In this document: positions 1-6,000 of the stretch, in pieces | Layout: every line of letters starts with the position of its first letter | How positions within the stretch are numbered: the stretch's first letter is position 1 | Origin: Malacoraja senta | Taxonomy: Eukaryota | Reading direction: 5' to 3' | DNA: 64,000 nucleotides | Assembly (NCBI GenBank): GCA_038087875.1 | Contig: JAXLNO010001219.1 | Span: 1 to 64,000, forward strand | Position numbers: made by a program

Positions 1-3000
1 CAACGGGATGCCACAACTAGTCACATCTTTCCATCTCCTTCGCTTTTTGCGTTCCCTCCGCAACTCCCTGGTCAACACGTCCTCTCCCCCCCCCCTCCCC
101 TCGTCCCCAGGTACCTTCCCCTACAACTGCAGGAGATGCAACACCAGTCACTATATATCCCCCCCTTTACTCCGTCCATGGGCCTCAACAGTCTTTTCGG
201 GTGAGGCAGAGGGTGGCTTGCATCTCCTCTAACCTCATCTACTCTATCCGCTGTTCCAGGTGTGAACAAGCGGATATAGTAGATGGGAGACCAAGCGCAG
301 ACTCGGCGATCGTTTCGCTGAACAACTCCGCTCAGTCTGCCTCGGCCTACGCTACATCCCGATTGCTAAACACTTTTATTCCCCCTCCCATTCCCAAACT
401 GATCTTTCCGTCCTGGACCTCCTCCAGTGTCAGAGTGAGGCCAAAGGCAAATTGGAAAAACAGCGCCTCATATTTCGCTTGGGCAGCTTACAACCCAGCG
501 CTTTGAATATTGACATCTCTAACTTCAAGTAACCCTTGCTTTACTCCTTTCCATCCCGCCCCCATCCGAAACCTCCAATTAGATTCACCTGATAATATTT
601 TACTGATTGTACGCCTCGTTGTCACCTTCCCTTCAGCTGACAATGATTCAATCTACATTTCCCTTTAACATTGTCACCTTTGATCACTTGTTTTAACATC
701 TTATCCTTCCATTTCTCTTCTGTCACCCAGAACATGACTGTCAGGCTGGAGAAGGGTCTCGATCCGAAACTTCACCCACTCCTTCTCTCGAGAGATGCTG
801 CCGGCTCCGCTGAGTTCCCCCAGCATTTTGTGTCTCTCTTAAAGCGATCGTAATTAGTTTTCGCGATTAAATTACAAGGCATTGAATTGTGTTTTTGGCA
901 CGCTGGTCTTCATCAGTGAGAACATTCAGAATATAATTTGAGATAATATGCTTCAGACGTGCAGATGTTCAGTCCACACTTTGGGAATTGTGTTCAGCTT
1001 CAGTCACTCAGCTCCAAGAAAAGTTGAGATGGACAGCGTGCAGAAAGGTTTTAGGGCGACGTTGCCTGGACAGGATGGGATTGACGCAGGGAGCGATTGG
1101 ACAAACTCAGACTTCATTCCTTAGTGTGGAAATGATTGAGAGAGGAACTTATAGAAATGAATCAATCACGAGAAGCATGTTCATTTTCCCACGATGTGTG
1201 GAATCAAAAAGTGGAGGACAGAGGTAATGGGAACTATTTAAAGAGGGAGGAATAGTAAGGTGCCATTGACCGTAATGGCATGTTTTGTACAGATGAGTGG
1301 CCGAAGCTGAACACAATTCGCACAAGTTCGACCTCAATAACATATGTACAACTGAAACATAACATCCCAACATATGTTCTGAGGGACAACATTTTCCACA
1401 CATTGGGTAATATGTACATGGAACCTGCTGCCAGGGGAAGTTGTTGAGGCAGAATAGCAGCATTTAAAATAAATTTTGGATATTTGCGTAGATTGGGATC
1501 ATTGCGAGTGATAAATGAGAAACGCGGACATATGGAAATGTCATAGAAAGACATGTTGGTCGGCATTAATGAGCTGTTGTGATGGGCATCTTTCGGTTCT
1601 CAATAACTCTAACCTTCTTCGGTTTCTGCGCTTCGCACACTCCCAGAGATGTAGATGAGCCGGTGAGGTATCAACCGGACGGTTCGGGCTGAGATAAAGT
1701 GCTGCTGAGATTTAGCAAGTGTTTGGTTTTTAACAATTCATACAGGTGACTGAATATTTGGTCCATTCCCACAGAACCCATGTCTGCTCCTGTGCTCAGT
1801 TATCTGTCAGCAGCAAATGCCTCACGTCTTGGAGGCTCAGTGTCAGTGTCCTGTGAGTCTCTCCGTGGATCCCTTCCCATCCATTACACATGGTTTGAGA
1901 AGAACGAGCATTGGGTTTCAACGATCTTGCAAGGCAATCAACTGGATCTGAGTTGTGAAATCCTCAGAGGTGAACACCTTCGATATTACTGCACAGCCGC
2001 AAATAATCGTGCGACAAAATCCAGTGAAATAGTCAAGGTGAAAGTCTTCAAAGGAGCAGGAACGTGCAGTTATGTGACAGAAATGAACAATGCAGGTGAG
2101 TGTTCCTCTCGTGTCCCTGAACCTGCTGCTATTCACCTTGTGGTGATGTTCATGTATTTCTTGTTATTTGCAGACGGCATCATTGCAGCCACCGTGAGCT
2201 CATGGTGTAAAATGCGAGAGTTTGTTTGGGGGACTGGCAAATAATTGCCCGTAGCTTCCACCATGGAGGTGTTGAGCAATTTCAGCAAAGGAGAGAAAGA
2301 CATGCACTTGTCATAAAGCGTTGAGTGCACTCCATCAAATTTCTGCCTTCTGCCTTAAAAATGCCGCTTGGCTGCCGCTTAAGGTCTCACAGTCACTTTG
2401 AGACATTGAAAGCAACCAAATGCATTCTGTTTGGATCCGCCATCATTTACAATCAAGGATGTACAATTTCATGATCATGTTCATGATTTTAACTGTTAAT
2501 TTGTGTTAAACTCCAGTAATATCACTAAATTAAATTGTAATCTACTTGGCCGTCACTCCATCAAGTATAACCCTTACTTTTGTCAAAGAGAATTTTGAAA
2601 TGAACTCCCAGTAGGTGTGGAGACGTTCAGATTGGAAGTCCAGAATAGAGTGTGAATGGTTTACATCAGAGACACCAAGCTTATACAATGCCAGCGTTTC
2701 TTAAACTATTTCAGTGCCATTCACCCTTGAGTCTTTATTACAAGATTTAATTCACCCTCCACTAAATATTCTTATGTTTTTTTGGTTATTATCATCTTAT
2801 TTTCACTTGTGCATAATTTTATATATAATTTATTTTGTCACATGAGCAAAAAACATGAATTAACTCATTCACCCCAAAATAATTTCATTCGCCCTTGGGT
2901 AAACCATTCATCAGTTTAAGAAGCACTGGCCGAGGCTACAATTTCGCCGAACACTTGTGTTTGGTCTGTCATGACCCAGAGTCGTACTTGATAGACACCC

Positions 3001-6000
3001 CGTTGATGTAGAGCAGCAGCAGTTTGCACCATCTGCACGATGCACTGCAGCAACTCACCAAGACTCCCAAGACATTACCTTCCAATTGCAACAGGCTCCG
3101 TGTTCAATGCATCATTCTTCACCATTCACACCCACATTAGCTGGGAAGCGCTTTGGAACGACGTGCAGATGGTGAGGGACGGTGTACAGTATCTGTCTCA
3201 TCGCAATCTAGGTGGAATTCAACAGAGTTAAGAAAATCATTGGGCGGACGCCCCTGTATACATTGATGTATACTATAATGTATATGTTTGTGAAAGGCTA
3301 ATTTTGCTCTTCAATCTATGAAAGAATTTTCCTTCAGTTTCAGGTGCACTGTGGGCAGAGAGCGAAGTACGAGGGGTTGTGGGAAGAGCGATCTCAATCG
3401 ATTGTCACTATGCAGCAGTGTACCGCTCACACACAAAATACTGGTGCCCTGGGACAAGTCGCCAGTGTACACATATAGTGGAAACAAATGGGAAACAAGG
3501 ACAGAGCGGAAGAGTGTCAATCACAGATAACCCGGCACGAGGAATATTTACTGTGACTGTGGAGGATCTTCACTCTGGAGATACAGGATGGTACAGATGT
3601 GGAATTATTACACCTGGCGAACCAACATTTAAAGTACATCTCCAAGTATCTGAAGGTAGGTTTCTCAGTGAGTGACTTCATGTCTCGACTTTGGCATCTG
3701 CATAAAACATTTGTTGGGTCACATATGGGAGCCTGGTGCACAGTTCTGGTCCCCGCTTTATAAAACAAAAGATGTGAAAGGTTTGGAGAGGTTACAGAAA
3801 AATGTCACCGGGATATTTAGTTGGAGGTTACAAATGCAACATGGAAACGGATCCTTCGGCCCACCGAGTCCACACCGACTAGCGATCACCGGTCGCACTA
3901 GTTCTATGTTATTCTACTTTCCCATTCGCTCCCTACACATAATTCTACAATACCGCCATTCTCACACCTCATTAGTGCAACATTATCACTATCAACAAGT
4001 TTATACAAGGAAATTTGAGAGTTGTTGATATTGATACTGTTGCACTAATGAAGTGTTTGAATGTTGGTATTGTAGAATTGTGGCAGAGTTTCAGATTAAA
4101 AGAAGATTAACTGCAGATGCTGGAAATATAAAACAAAGACAGATGGTGCTGCTGTGTATTGGTACAGTGGCAGACATGGTAGTTCTGCCAGCTGGGTGGA
4201 TGGAGAGACACAGAGATGTTCAAATCTGTTAAGTTGTGAGGAGAAGGTACAGGGAAGACTTACAAGGATGTTGCGATGACTTGACACTCAGGGAGGGATT
4301 GAGCAGATTAGGACTTTATTTCTTGGAGCGCAGGAGGATGAGGGATGATCTTATGGCAGGTAAAAAATCATGCGAGGAATAGATCGAGTTAATACACAGC
4401 CTTTTGCTCAGAGTAGGGGAATCGAGAACCGGAGGACATGGTTTTAATATGAGGGGGGAATGATTTAACAGGAACCTGGTGAGTCACGTTTTTACACAAA
4501 GGTTGGTAGGCACATGAAACGAACTGCCGACAGAAGTAGTTATGGCAGGTACTATCGTAACATTTAATAAAATATTGGACATGTACATGAATATGATATG
4601 TTTAGTGGGTTAAGGGCCAAGAAAGGGCAGGTGGAACTCGTGTAGATTGGGCGTGTTGGTCTGCGCGGGCAAGTTAGACCGAAGGGCCTGTTTCTACGCT
4701 GTATGACTCTATGATTCTATGTAGATGGATGGGTCCGATTCCAAAATGGCGGCTCTGGCTAAGATACAGAGATGGTGGATATTGGCGAGTGTTTGATTTT
4801 CAGATGTTCACTCAGTTGTCTGACTGTTTGCTCCTTTCCCACAGACCCCGTGTCTGTTCCTGTGCTTGGATTTCTGTCACCAGCCAATGTCTCCTGTGTC
4901 GGGGGCTCAATGACAGTGTCCTGTGAGTCGGTCAGTGGATCACCGCCCATTAGCTACAGCTGGTATGAAAAGACCCCATCTGTGGATTCAAAGATCTCAG
5001 ACCAAAATGCCCTGGATCTGCATTGTCAATCATTCAAACACCAGCACCATCAATATTATTGCACAGCCTCCAATAATAATGGAACAAAATCCAGTGAAAT
5101 GGTCAACGTGTCCATCTCCAACAGTGACGTGCCCTGCAGTTTTCTAGTGAAAATCAACGGCACTGGTAAGTAGTGGGGGGGAATGAGGAGAAGAAGGGGA
5201 AGTGCGGGTGGGGGGTTCATCAGATTACAAGTGATAGAAGCAGAAATAGACCATTCAATCATGGCTGATCTATCTTCCCTTCTTCACCCCATTCTCCTGC
5301 TTTCTCCTCATAACCTCCGTCACCCTGAAATCCCTGCACGTTATTTAAGTAATTTATCAAGATTAATATGATGGAATTATGGCTCATTTGTCAGTACTTG
5401 GTTGTTGGGCTCCAGAAATAGAATTCGTAGTGCTGGTGTAGGCTAGCATCCTGTATAGAATTGCCTCTTGCATTTACACAGCTTTGAACTAGGTTTGCAG
5501 TGACATCAGTCCAAGCACATTCACTTTCCCACCACATGATCCACACACAGATATGGTAAGGGATCAGACATTATCAGTAAATGTGGCCACAGTTAAATCC
5601 TTGACGACGGTATCCCATTTACCAGCACCTCGTCCATTGCAGCAATTCAGGTACCTCCACCTTCTGGGTTTAAAAATATTTCTTGATACCCTTGAAACAT
5701 CCTGCTCCTTAACTTAACCATGTGTTCTCCATATTTACACATATCTATCGTGCAACATTTCCCAAAAATCCACTGTCTATGCAGCTCAGAGTTTTTGTGC
5801 ACCTGTAATTGGTTTCCCCTTCCTCACCTGTCCTGCATGGAATATTATAAAAACCTTATCGAACCCCTCCCCATAACTGCAATGTTTCATCCCAAGCAAC
5901 ACTTCTCTCAAGTCTCAAGTCAAATTGCAACCTTTAGATTAGTTTATGGATACAGCGTGGAAACAGGCTCTTCGACCCACTCGGTGCACACCGTCCAGTC

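What the first reader, a model, noticed from the sequence alone, without database searches (positions are those of the whole stretch)
1..3990. About 3.9 kb of near-identical sequence homogenises C2a and V4 between the activating and inhibitory genes
Positions 1-3900 match 28632-32530, introns included, with only a handful of differences that I could spot (near 942, 1123, 1436, 1973 and 3914, plus two C-run indels). Divergence rises abruptly after about 3990/32620, and C2b then differs at about 10 residues. V4 is identical and C2a differs by one residue. Inference: a recent gene conversion or unequal crossover keeps ligand specificity matched between the pair.
Basis: partly seen in the sequence, partly recalled or inferred. 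Interest (0 to 1): 0.68.

Follow-up and report, generated by a model that had tools for sequence, protein, structure and literature searches.

The report
Recent sequence exchange between paired skate receptors
Two neighbouring skate immune-receptor genes with opposite signalling tails share at least 4 kb of almost identical DNA over two outer-domain exons and their introns, a fresh cartilaginous-fish example of the domain homogenisation already known from mammalian paired receptors.

Summary
Window 1-3998 and 28632-32629 differ by 5 substitutions and 2 one-base homopolymer indels (0.13%). Divergence then jumps to 4.3% at 3999/32630 (maximum chi-square breakpoint, 0 of 1000 permutations) and to about 17% at 5205, just past the last Ig exon.

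The genes are skate MDIR receptors (pIgR/CD300-type V domains mixed with FCRL-type C2 domains); the window is not human. Gene A has an arginine in its transmembrane exon and a 16-residue tail (activating-type). Gene B has an uncharged transmembrane segment and three ITIM/ITSM-like motifs (inhibitory-type).

The tract is cut by the window start, so 4.0 kb is a minimum and only one boundary is visible. I favour interlocus gene conversion laid over an older homogenisation. A recent unequal crossover that built a hybrid gene cannot be excluded, nor can an assembly error.

In the three other skates with both tail types, the matching C2a, V4 and C2b domains mostly group within species, which points to a recurring process.

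"Keeps ligand specificity matched" is untested: the ligand is unknown and gene A's outer V domains lie outside the window. This is a new member of a known kind and of moderate interest.

The parts
1..3998 (+). Near-identical tract, copy in gene A (activating-type). It is cut by the window start, so this is a minimum extent.
   Evidence: 5 substitutions and 2 one-base indels against 28632-32629; breakpoint at 3999 by maximum chi-square, 0 of 1000 permutations.
28632..32629 (+). Near-identical tract, copy in gene B (inhibitory-type), 28,631 bp downstream on the same strand.
3999..5204 (+). Second, older stratum in gene A (4.3% substitutions). It covers the rest of the V4-C2b intron and the C2b exon, and matches about 32630-33843 in gene B.
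   Evidence: 52 substitutions in 1202 aligned bases; second breakpoint at 5205, 0 of 1000 permutations.
32630..33843 (+). Second stratum, copy in gene B (end coordinate approximate).
   Evidence: Pair alignment.
1775..2095 (+). Gene A C2a exon (FCRL-type C2 Ig domain); edges read by hand, within a few bases.
   Evidence: Pfam Ig_C17orf99, Ig_3 and Ig_2; FCRL5 chain E = 1.8e-34; AG/GT edges.
3338..3655 (+).
   Evidence: Pfam V-set E = 2.9e-13; pIgR E = 1.2e-49 and CD300 family about 1e-18; identical in protein to 31968-32285.
4845..5165 (+). Gene A C2b exon.
   Evidence: Pfam Ig_3 and Ig_2; 10 of 108 residues differ from gene B, dN 0.041, dS 0.086.
6453..6501 (+). Gene A stalk exon (approximate).
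   Evidence: tblastn to MDIR5 and reading of the frame.
8834..8924 (+). Gene A transmembrane exon with an arginine in the hydrophobic stretch (activating-type).
   Evidence: 90% identical to MDIR5 over 31 residues; translation; also matches the end of Amblyraja P0001.
9543..9590 (+). Gene A last exon: short tail ending in a stop codon, with no tyrosine motif.
19468..19515 (+). Gene B leader exon.
   Evidence: 15 of 16 residues match the MDIR3 N-terminus; donor GT.
20939..21259 (+). Gene B V1 exon.
23429..23749 (+). Gene B V2 exon.
27677..27997 (+). Gene B V3 exon.
30406..30726 (+). Gene B C2a exon.
31969..32286 (+). Gene B V4 exon.
33484..33804 (+). Gene B C2b exon.
35101..35149 (+). Gene B stalk exon (approximate).
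41214..41304 (+). Gene B transmembrane exon, with no charged residue in the hydrophobic stretch.
   Evidence: 86.7% identical to MDIR3 over 30 residues; translation.
46647..46685 (+). Gene B small cytoplasmic exon (5' edge approximate).
47104..47379 (+). Gene B last exon with ITYAVV, VLYADV and TIYASV (ITIM/ITSM-like), ending in a stop codon.
   Evidence: 79% identical to MDIR3 residues 611-701; translation.
53708..55379 (+). Deleted remnant of a second activating-type gene. It serves as an internal outgroup for the V4 region.
   Evidence: 53825-54541 matches A 2934-3638 (87.3%) and joins directly to 54543-55379, which matches A 9318-10143 (88.8%); A and B are identical where both differ from it at 119 of 790 sites.
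58197..64000 (+). Gene C (leader, V1, V2), a paralogue of gene B's 5' half that runs off the window. It sets the background divergence of the tandem array.
   Evidence: 20034-24944 against 58940-63836 is 93.8% identical, uniform at 90-98% per 300 columns; exons.

Best explanation
The window is part of a tandem, same-strand cluster of skate MDIR genes (modular domain immune-type receptors: pIgR/CD300-type V domains interspersed with FCRL-type C2 domains). Gene A is activating-type and gene B inhibitory-type, 28.6 kb apart. Their signalling ends are old and unrelated. Their ectodomain parts have been made alike by ectopic homologous recombination at least twice:
- An older event reaches to about 37 bp past the last Ig exon (C2b) and is now 4.3% diverged.
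- A very recent event, most likely a non-reciprocal interlocus gene conversion, copied at least 4.0 kb (the C2a exon, the V4 exon and the introns around them) from one gene onto the other. It ended in the V4-C2b intron at 3999/32630.

Shown: the tract, both right-hand breakpoints, the gene structures, the tail motifs and the mostly within-species grouping of these domains in other skates.

Inferred: that the mechanism is conversion rather than crossover, that the tails signal in opposite directions, and that repeated homogenisation is kept because it holds the two receptors to the same binding properties.
For: - Tract and break: 5 substitutions in 3997 against 80 in 1396, Fisher p = 1.6e-41, breakpoint 3999, 0 of 1000 permutations; exact run of 1940 bp.
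- Introns are as identical as exons, so this is a DNA copying event and not protein conservation.
- Stepped divergence, JC 0.0013, then 0.045, then 0.19, with the second break at 5205. That means at least two events with different 3' ends, which fits repeated patch transfer.
- Old tails: gene A's transmembrane exon is 90% identical to MDIR5 and to the end of Amblyraja P0001. Gene B's transmembrane and last exons are 87% and 79% identical to MDIR3. The self-comparison lists no A-B match between A's 3' part beyond 6738 and B's 3' part beyond 35385.
- The activating-type transmembrane motif also occurs in stingray and manta proteins (17 of 113 by the motif; P0001, P0045 and P0078 added by the motif).
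- Internal outgroup: the array background is 5-13% diverged (B-C 93.8%, A-remnant 87-89%). In the V4 region A and B are identical while both differ from the remnant at 119 of 790 sites.
- V4 in other skates: activating and inhibitory domains group within species. Amblyraja P0001+P0016 are sisters at 99/93, Rostroraja MDIR5+MDIR3 at 98/83, and the Rhinoraja clade has 96/94.
- C2a and C2b in other skates: Amblyraja pairs at 100/93 and 100/87; Rhinoraja at 80/90 and 100/97.
- Mean identity, within-species opposite-type against between-species same-type: C2a 91.4 vs 75.5, V4 93.4 vs 86.1, C2b 88.9 vs 80.9.
- Published parallels: KLRC, PIR and Ly49 'merohomogenization' (PMC3210942, abstract and section 7); CD300A/C (PMC12447643, abstract and passages); SIGLEC11/16, with a roughly 2-kb conversion and no motif at the 3' boundary (PMC5701461, passages).
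Against: - Only one boundary of the recent tract is visible, so the defining feature of conversion (a patch bounded on both sides) is not shown.
- At least 4 kb is longer than the patchy tracts of a few hundred bases to about 2 kb described in the papers I read (PMC3210942 section 7; PMC5701461).
- No read data, so an assembly error is not excluded. The two indels lie in homopolymers and could be sequencing noise.
- No GC or CpG shift marks the tract.
- The comparative support is thin and partly selected. Only four activating-type skate proteins were available (P0001, P0018, P0035, P0045) and none from Leucoraja.
- The Amblyraja inhibitory partner P0016 was chosen because it was the sister in the tree. 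The V4 domains of two other Amblyraja inhibitory proteins (P0020, P0023) lie elsewhere in the clade.
- Rostroraja MDIR3 and MDIR5 are unresolved for C2a and not sisters for C2b.
- Within-species grouping can also come from lineage-specific duplication with tail swapping.
- Donor and recipient could not be determined.
Confidence: 0.55

Rival explanations
1. A recent unequal crossover (or a tandem segmental duplication) between misaligned array units built gene A as a hybrid: the 5' part of a B-like inhibitory gene joined at 3999 to the 3' part of an activating gene. The visible 4 kb would then be only the end of a much longer near-identical block reaching upstream of the window.
For: - The tract runs to window base 1 with no sign of decay.
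- The genes are direct repeats in a tandem array that has clearly been rearranged: a 5.7-kb deletion remnant, a unit duplication of A-B and remnant-C, and a V2/V3 exon duplication.
- At least 4 kb is long for a conversion patch compared with the cases I read (PMC3210942 section 7; PMC5701461 passages).
- A single crossover gives exactly one sharp junction, as seen.
Against: - The older stratum ends at a different point (5205), so two independent crossovers in the same gene pair would be needed.
- In other skates the activating and inhibitory proteins with alike C2-V-C2 modules have different N-terminal architectures, for example MDIR5 V-C-V-C against MDIR3 V-V-C-V-C, and P0001 against P0016. 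That does not fit wholesale replacement of the 5' half.
- PMC3210942 (section 7) argues that crossover is too crude for patterns of this kind.
- None of this is decisive for this locus.
Confidence: 0.3
2. An assembly artefact. The first 4 kb of the window is really a second haplotype or read set of gene B's region, threaded onto gene A's 3' part at a homologous point. Alternatively, polishing with mis-mapped reads homogenised two copies that really differ by about 5%.
For: - Divergence of 0.13% is in the range expected between alleles (my own knowledge, not tested).
- Both indels are homopolymer length changes, typical of sequencing error.
- The tract touches the window edge, so its continuity with real upstream gene A sequence cannot be checked.
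- Clusters of repeats about 95% alike are hard to assemble.
Against: - The junction is seamless, with no N or gap, and lies inside continuous homology that carries on at 95.7% for a further 1.2 kb.
- Both copies keep intact exons and splice sites.
- Annotated Amblyraja proteins from an independent assembly show the same pattern: the activating and inhibitory C2a domains are 97.2% identical and the V4 domains 95.3%.
- Polishing errors would be expected to give a mosaic rather than one clean step.
Confidence: 0.1
3. The identity reflects strong purifying selection on a conserved element in an old duplication, not recent exchange.
For: The tract contains two coding exons.
Against: - 3348 of the 3997 aligned tract bases are intronic and carry only 4 substitutions.
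- The intron includes a decayed interspersed repeat.
- The same exons differ by 8-26% in protein between skate species.
- No Rfam family reaches its gathering score anywhere in the window, and the intron ORFs have no Pfam match.
Confidence: 0.02

Closest known systems
Skate MDIR family (modular domain immune-type receptors, Rostroraja eglanteria MDIR1-5; Cannon et al. 2006, Immunogenetics 58:362)
   Same: - The V4 exon is 91% identical to MDIR3 and 85% to MDIR5.
- pIgR/CD300-type V domains are interspersed with C2 domains in variable order.
- Both tail types are present: gene A's tail resembles MDIR5 and gene B's resembles MDIR3.
[quoted passage not shown]
   Different: The species is different and not determined: the best identity to any database protein is 93%, and none is the window's own. 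Gene B's six-domain order V-V-V-C2-V-C2 was not among the 23 skate proteins I segmented. The original paper is not held, so I could not check what it says about genomic organisation or recombination. Its reference details come from the reference list of PMC3031540.
Merohomogenization of paired opposing receptors (KLRC/NKG2, KLRI, KLRB, Ly49, PIR; PMC3210942)
   Same: Homogenisation after speciation is restricted to the part of the genes that encodes the extracellular domains, while the opposite signalling parts stay distinct. Introns are included. Here the older stratum ends 37 bp after the last Ig exon.
   Different: Those families are mostly C-type lectin-like and mammalian. The tracts described there are patchy and a few hundred bases long (section 7). 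Here one continuous tract of at least 4 kb is seen, with only one boundary.
CD300A / CD300C paired receptors of primates (PMC12447643)
   Same: The V domain is of the same structural type (CD300 chains about 1e-18). One partner is inhibitory with ITIMs and the other activating with a charged transmembrane residue. The extracellular domains group by lineage, which that paper attributes to gene conversion.
   Different: CD300 molecules have a single V domain and a glutamate in the transmembrane segment. The skate genes have four to six or more Ig domains, an arginine in the transmembrane segment, and FCRL-type C2 domains. The primate evidence is at protein level, whereas here the DNA tract and its break are seen directly.
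SIGLEC11 / SIGLEC16 and SIGLEC5 / SIGLEC14 gene conversion (PMC5701461 passages; PMC4042635 search listing only)
   Same: [quoted passage not shown]
   Different: About 2 kb converted with genes about 9 kb apart (PMC5701461), against at least 4 kb and 28.6 kb apart here. In Siglecs the converted V-set domain is the known ligand-binding domain, whereas here the converted modules are membrane-proximal and the binding domain is unknown.

Membership tests
MDIR (modular domain immune-type receptors of skates) | V domains of the pIgR/CD300/TREM type | tested here: met
   Pfam V-set E = 2.9e-13. PDB sequence search gives pIgR 1.2e-49, CD300 family about 1e-18, NKp44 4.7e-9 and TREM2 about 6e-6. The exon has the extra cysteine pair (YWC...QC) besides the canonical pair. 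That this pair marks the type is my recollection.
MDIR (modular domain immune-type receptors of skates) | C2-type Ig domains interspersed with V domains in a modular, variable order | tested here: met
   Gene B is V-V-V-C2-V-C2 and the visible part of gene A is C2-V-C2. Relatives show V-V-C-V-C, V-C-V-C, V-C-V-C-V-C and longer. C2a matches FCRL5 at 1.8e-34.
MDIR (modular domain immune-type receptors of skates) | Close sequence relationship to the named MDIR proteins | tested here: met
   MDIR3 (P0022) covers all gene B exons at 66-93% identity, and MDIR5 (P0035) covers gene A's exons including the transmembrane exon (90%) and tail (81%).
MDIR (modular domain immune-type receptors of skates) | Multigene family with activating forms (charged transmembrane residue, short tail) and inhibitory forms (ITIM) | tested here: met
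   Motifs only. Gene A has an arginine in its transmembrane exon and a 16-residue tail. Gene B has ITYAVV, VLYADV and TIYASV. Three genes and one remnant lie in 64 kb. Signalling itself cannot be tested with these tools.
Paired receptors homogenised by interlocus gene conversion (merohomogenization) | Extracellular parts more alike within a species than between orthologues, with the signalling parts the reverse | tested here: met
   Trees and identity tables and tail identities to other species. Caveats: only four activating-type skate proteins, hand-picked partners, and the Rostroraja C2a and C2b domains are not resolved as sisters.
Paired receptors homogenised by interlocus gene conversion (merohomogenization) | Homogenised DNA includes introns and stops before the transmembrane and cytoplasmic exons | tested here: met
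   Breaks at 3999 and 5205. The stalk block is 16% diverged and no homology is listed beyond 6738/35385.
Paired receptors homogenised by interlocus gene conversion (merohomogenization) | Non-reciprocal patch bounded on both sides (separates conversion from crossover) | tested here: inconclusive
   The right boundary is sharp. The left boundary lies outside the window, because the tract begins at base 1.
Paired receptors homogenised by interlocus gene conversion (merohomogenization) | The two partners bind the same ligand | not testable with these tools
   No MDIR ligand came up in what I read (PMC3031540 passages). Gene A's distal V domains are not in the window.
Hybrid gene from unequal crossover or tandem segmental duplication | Near-identity continues over the whole upstream repeat unit, with an extra gene copy upstream | not testable with these tools
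   This needs sequence upstream of window base 1.

The most novel reading that the evidence does not exclude
Homogenisation of the extracellular modules between opposite-signalling partners is a standing, recurrent property of the MDIR cluster in skates. That would place the paired-receptor 'merohomogenization' regime in cartilaginous fish, and so at or near the base of jawed vertebrates. It also acts on membrane-proximal C2-V modules, which would imply that these modules take part in ligand or co-receptor contact rather than serving as spacers. The window would then have caught an event of about 0.1% age in the act.
Probability: 0.25. Interest if true: 0.6.

Novelty: new member of a known kind. 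Interest (0 to 1): 0.4.

Why it matters
Paired activating and inhibitory receptors must keep the same binding properties while signalling in opposite directions. In mammals this is achieved by repeatedly copying the ectodomain DNA between partners.

Seeing the same signature in skate MDIR genes, with the DNA tract, its breakpoints and an older layer beneath it all directly visible, would show that the mechanism is not a mammalian peculiarity. It would instead be a general outcome of tandem immune-receptor clusters, reaching back to cartilaginous fish.

It also gives a practical warning for annotation and phylogeny of this family. Domain trees will reflect recent exchange rather than gene orthology, and assemblies of such clusters need long-read validation.

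Tried and rejected
- **Feature at the break.** The aligned view of 3860-4120 shows ordinary intron sequence. Tandem Repeats Finder lists nothing at 3999; the nearest rows are 3255-3284 and 4092-4118, both weak.
- **Biased-conversion signature.** GC is 0.445 in the tract against 0.447 in the flank, and CpG o/e is 0.61 against 0.46. This gives nothing usable.
- **Donor and recipient.** Could not be determined. The remnant copy lacks the region right of the break. At the one coding difference (E/D), none of the eight skate relatives printed appears, read by eye, to share either residue at the matching place.
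- **Two sub-events inside the tract.** 6 of the 7 differences lie in the first half, binomial p = 0.058. Not significant, so dropped.
- **Conservation as an explanation.** Rejected because of the intron identity.
- **Structured RNA.** Rfam at gathering thresholds gives 0 matches in the whole window.
- **ORFs in the first intron of the tract** (21-503 and 266-529). No Pfam family. My recollection that they resemble the end of a Penelope-like element is unconfirmed.
- **More activating-type relatives.** The 31-residue transmembrane exon was under the tool's minimum. The enclosing open frame found only 2 proteins among 20 candidates.
- **Original MDIR paper and the group's 2010 review.** Not held. 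Supplementary files were not consulted; those of PMC12447643 and PMC5701461 hold the trees and boundary figures that I cite only from the text.
- **Not attempted.** All searches used single exons or single open frames, so the full-length architecture rests on exon-by-exon matches. No eukaryotic genome or metagenome collection was open, so orthologous loci and the sequence upstream of the window stayed unchecked.

Full report
**What the window is.** The 64-kb window has no N. No Rfam family reaches its gathering score. Its + strand carries a tandem cluster of immunoglobulin-superfamily receptor genes. A search with the V exon at 3337-3660 alone returned 113 proteins with E <= 1e-5 among 235 candidates. 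Nearly all are from sharks and rays, and the closest come from skates: Leucoraja erinacea and Amblyraja radiata at up to 93% identity, and Rostroraja eglanteria 'Modular domain immune-type receptor 3' (91%) and '5' (85%). None is the window's own protein, so the species is a skate or close relative that I did not determine. It is not human. All searches used single exons or single open frames.

**Domain types.**
- The V exons are Pfam V-set (E = 1.4e-12 to 2.9e-13) and the C2 exons match Ig_3, Ig_2 and Ig_C17orf99.
- Against solved structures, V4 is closest to the polymeric immunoglobulin receptor (1.2e-49), then the CD300 family (about 1e-18), NKp44 and TREM2.
- C2a matches FCRL5 (1.8e-34).

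**Gene models** (tblastn with MDIR3 and MDIR5; frames and splice edges read).
- **Gene A** is cut by the window start. It shows C2a (about 1775-2095), a V exon (3338-3655), C2b (about 4845-5165), a stalk exon (about 6453-6501), a transmembrane exon (8834-8924) with an arginine inside the hydrophobic stretch, and a last exon (9543-9590) that gives a 16-residue tail.
- **Gene B** has a leader (19468-19515), V1, V2 and V3 (20939-21259, 23429-23749, 27677-27997), C2a (30406-30726), V4 (31969-32286), C2b (33484-33804), a stalk (about 35101-35149), an uncharged transmembrane exon (41214-41304), a small exon (46647-46685) and a last exon (47104-47379) with ITYAVV, VLYADV and TIYASV.
Signalling itself is inferred.
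- **Further downstream** lie a deleted remnant of an A-like gene (53708-55379) and gene C (leader 58197-58244, V1, V2), which runs off the window. In the remnant, the V exon is cut 16 bp before its end and joined to the A-equivalent of 9318, which removes the C2b, stalk and transmembrane exons.
- The array is thus two units, A-B and remnant-C.

**The observation.**
- 1-5966 matches 28632-34661 at 94.75% overall.
- In the pair alignment the first 3998 bases differ at 941, 1123, 1437, 1974 and 3915, plus two one-base indels in C10/C11 and C7/C6 runs.
- From 3999 onward differences come every 10-30 bases.
- The tract has 5 substitutions in 3997 aligned bases. The 1396 aligned bases of 3999-5400 have 80 (Fisher p = 1.6e-41).
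- A maximum chi-square scan puts the break at 3999 (chi2 209.6), and 0 of 1000 permutations reach it.
- Introns are as identical as exons: 3 in 1763, 0 in 1242 and 1 in 343 for the three intron pieces, 1 in 331 for the C2a exon and 0 in 318 for the V4 exon.
- V4 is identical in protein, C2a differs at one residue, and C2b at 10 of 108 (16 nucleotide differences, dN 0.041, dS 0.086).

- The tract starts at window base 1, so 4.0 kb is a minimum and the left boundary is unknown.
- Divergence after the break is stepped rather than flat. It is 4.3% from 3999 to 5204, then 16.7% from 5205, which is 37 bp after the C2b exon as analysed (second breakpoint chi2 62.9, 0 of 1000 permutations).
- The Jukes-Cantor distances are 0.0013, 0.045 and 0.19. 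The stalk block is at 0.18, and no A-B homology is listed beyond 6738/35385.
- So there are at least two layers of exchange over an old, deeply diverged gene pair. The younger layer is about 36 times younger than the older one.

**Background.**
- Gene B's 5' half against gene C is uniformly 90-98% identical per 300 columns, with no exact run longer than 158 bp. The A-B tract holds an exact run of 1940 bp.
- Where the remnant overlaps the tract (A 2934-3638), A and B are identical and both differ from the remnant at 119 of 790 aligned sites.
- The A-B identity is therefore much younger than the duplication that made the two array units.

**Age of the two tail types.**
- Gene A's transmembrane exon is 90% identical to Rostroraja MDIR5 and to the end of Amblyraja P0001.
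- Gene B's transmembrane and last exons are 87% and 79% identical to MDIR3.
- An activating-type transmembrane motif occurs in 17 of the 113 relatives by the motif, including proteins named from Hemitrygon, Hypanus and Mobula. A second motif added P0001, P0045 and P0078.
- Old tails joined to young ectodomain DNA means secondary exchange, not a recent whole-gene duplication.

**Comparison with other skates: method.**
- I cut 23 of the 26 skate-named proteins into domains, using HMMs built from the window's own exons. P0078, P0100 and P0102 were left out.
- I built maximum-likelihood trees from these domains. The first pair left out five long, possibly fused models. The second pair added the last four domains of P0001 and left out P0003, P0006, P0007 and P0025.
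- Domains spanning fewer than 91 residues were dropped.

**Comparison with other skates: results.**
- **V4-type clade** (100/98): the window's A and B are identical. Amblyraja activating P0001 is sister to inhibitory P0016 (99/93). Rostroraja MDIR5 is sister to MDIR3 (98/83). All six Rhinoraja domains, activating and inhibitory, form one group (96/94).
- **C2a:** window pair 100/100, Amblyraja pair 100/93, Rhinoraja group 80/90, Rostroraja unresolved.
- **C2b:** window pair 95/88, Amblyraja pair 100/87, Rhinoraja group 100/97, Rostroraja not sisters.
- **Mean identity**, within-species opposite-type pairs against between-species same-type pairs: C2a 91.4 vs 75.5, V4 93.4 vs 86.1, C2b 88.9 vs 80.9.

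**Against this reading.**
- Only four activating-type skate proteins were available, and none from Leucoraja.
- The partners were hand-picked, and P0016 was chosen because it was the sister in the tree.
- The V4 domains of two other Amblyraja inhibitory proteins (P0020, P0023) sit elsewhere in the clade, so grouping is by gene pair and not by whole species.
- Lineage-specific duplication with tail swapping would give the same trees.

**Mechanism.**
- The data require recent ectopic homologous recombination or an assembly error.
- I favour interlocus gene conversion (0.55). Two layers with different 3' ends fit repeated patch transfer. In addition, activating and inhibitory relatives with alike C2-V-C2 modules have different N-terminal architectures.
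- A recent unequal crossover or tandem duplication that made gene A a hybrid (0.3) predicts that identity continues far upstream of the window. At least 4 kb is long compared with the patchy few-hundred-base tracts of KLRC genes (PMC3210942, section 7) and the roughly 2-kb SIGLEC11/16 conversion (PMC5701461, passages). The one visible junction is exactly what a single crossover would leave.
- An assembly artefact (0.1) cannot be tested without reads. Against it stand the seamless junction inside continuing 95.7% homology, intact exons in both copies, and the same pattern in proteins annotated from an independent Amblyraja assembly.
- Conservation by selection is excluded by the intron identity.
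- Nothing marks the break: no tandem repeat, no element edge visible in the alignment and no composition shift. PMC5701461 reports the same absence of a motif at the 3' boundary.
- The donor could not be determined.

**The functional inference.**
- That exchange 'keeps ligand specificity matched' is the standard reading for paired receptors (PMC3210942 abstract; PMC12447643 abstract and passages; PMC5701461 passages), and it is plausible here.
- No MDIR ligand came up in what I read. The young tract covers membrane-proximal modules. Gene A's distal V domains are outside the window.
- One young event that copies 3.3 kb of intron along with 0.65 kb of exon says nothing about selection.

**Novelty.**
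- Homogenisation of ectodomains between opposite-signalling partners is well described in mammals and in Xenopus CEACAMs (search listing).
- In the held library, a search for MDIR together with 'gene conversion' found 2 papers, both unrelated. A search for cartilaginous fish, paired receptors and CD300 found nothing on this.
- The original MDIR paper is not held, so I cannot say what it reports on recombination.
- I file this as a new member of a known kind: real, clean and instructive, but expected in type.

Noticed in passing
window 53708-55379 (+): Deletion remnant of a second activating-type gene. A V exon, which has lost one cysteine of the extra pair, is cut 16 bp before its end and joined to the equivalent of gene A's last intron. 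The C2b, stalk and transmembrane exons are missing, while a tail exon with a stop codon remains at 54765-54815.
   Followed up: partly
window 15056-19141 and 42055-45271 (+): Two copies of a LINE, 97.6% identical over 3.2 kb. One lies between genes A and B and the other in gene B's intron before the cytoplasmic exons. The ORFs match a GDSL-like esterase (ORF1), an apurinic-type endonuclease and a reverse transcriptase. The endonuclease and RT parts lie in two overlapping frames, so the copy looks broken.
   Followed up: partly
window 22929-23950 vs 27193-28191; 25312-26611 vs 28187-29485: Gene B's V3 exon and part of the following intron are a tandem duplicate of V2 and its intron (89% and 81% identity). 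This shows how extra V modules are added within a gene.
   Followed up: no
window 302-831, 11639-12105, 26068-26588, 28933-29462, 55654-56190 (+), 35701-36190 (-): An interspersed repeat of about 500 bp (72-74% identity between copies) lies in the first intron of the tract and in five other places. Its open frames have no Pfam match and its class is undetermined.
   Followed up: partly
window 6076-6133: A G-rich run (GGGAGGGG units, 58 bp) in gene A's intron after C2b, within the stretch where the A-B alignment becomes gappy.
   Followed up: no
window 48158-49159 vs 51557-52556: A direct repeat of 1 kb (84% identity) downstream of gene B. It has no counterpart near gene A and is unexplained.
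   Followed up: no
window 10649-11194 (-): An open frame of 182 aa that looks like the tail of a reverse transcriptase. It matches Pfam ALKBH8_N (E = 3.5e-16) and is probably a retroelement fragment rather than a host gene.
   Followed up: no
proteins P0001 (2000 aa, 18 Ig domains), P0003, P0025: Very long annotated skate models made of many V-C2 pairs. They may be real giant receptors, or neighbouring MDIR genes fused by automatic annotation in a cluster of near-identical modules.
   Followed up: no
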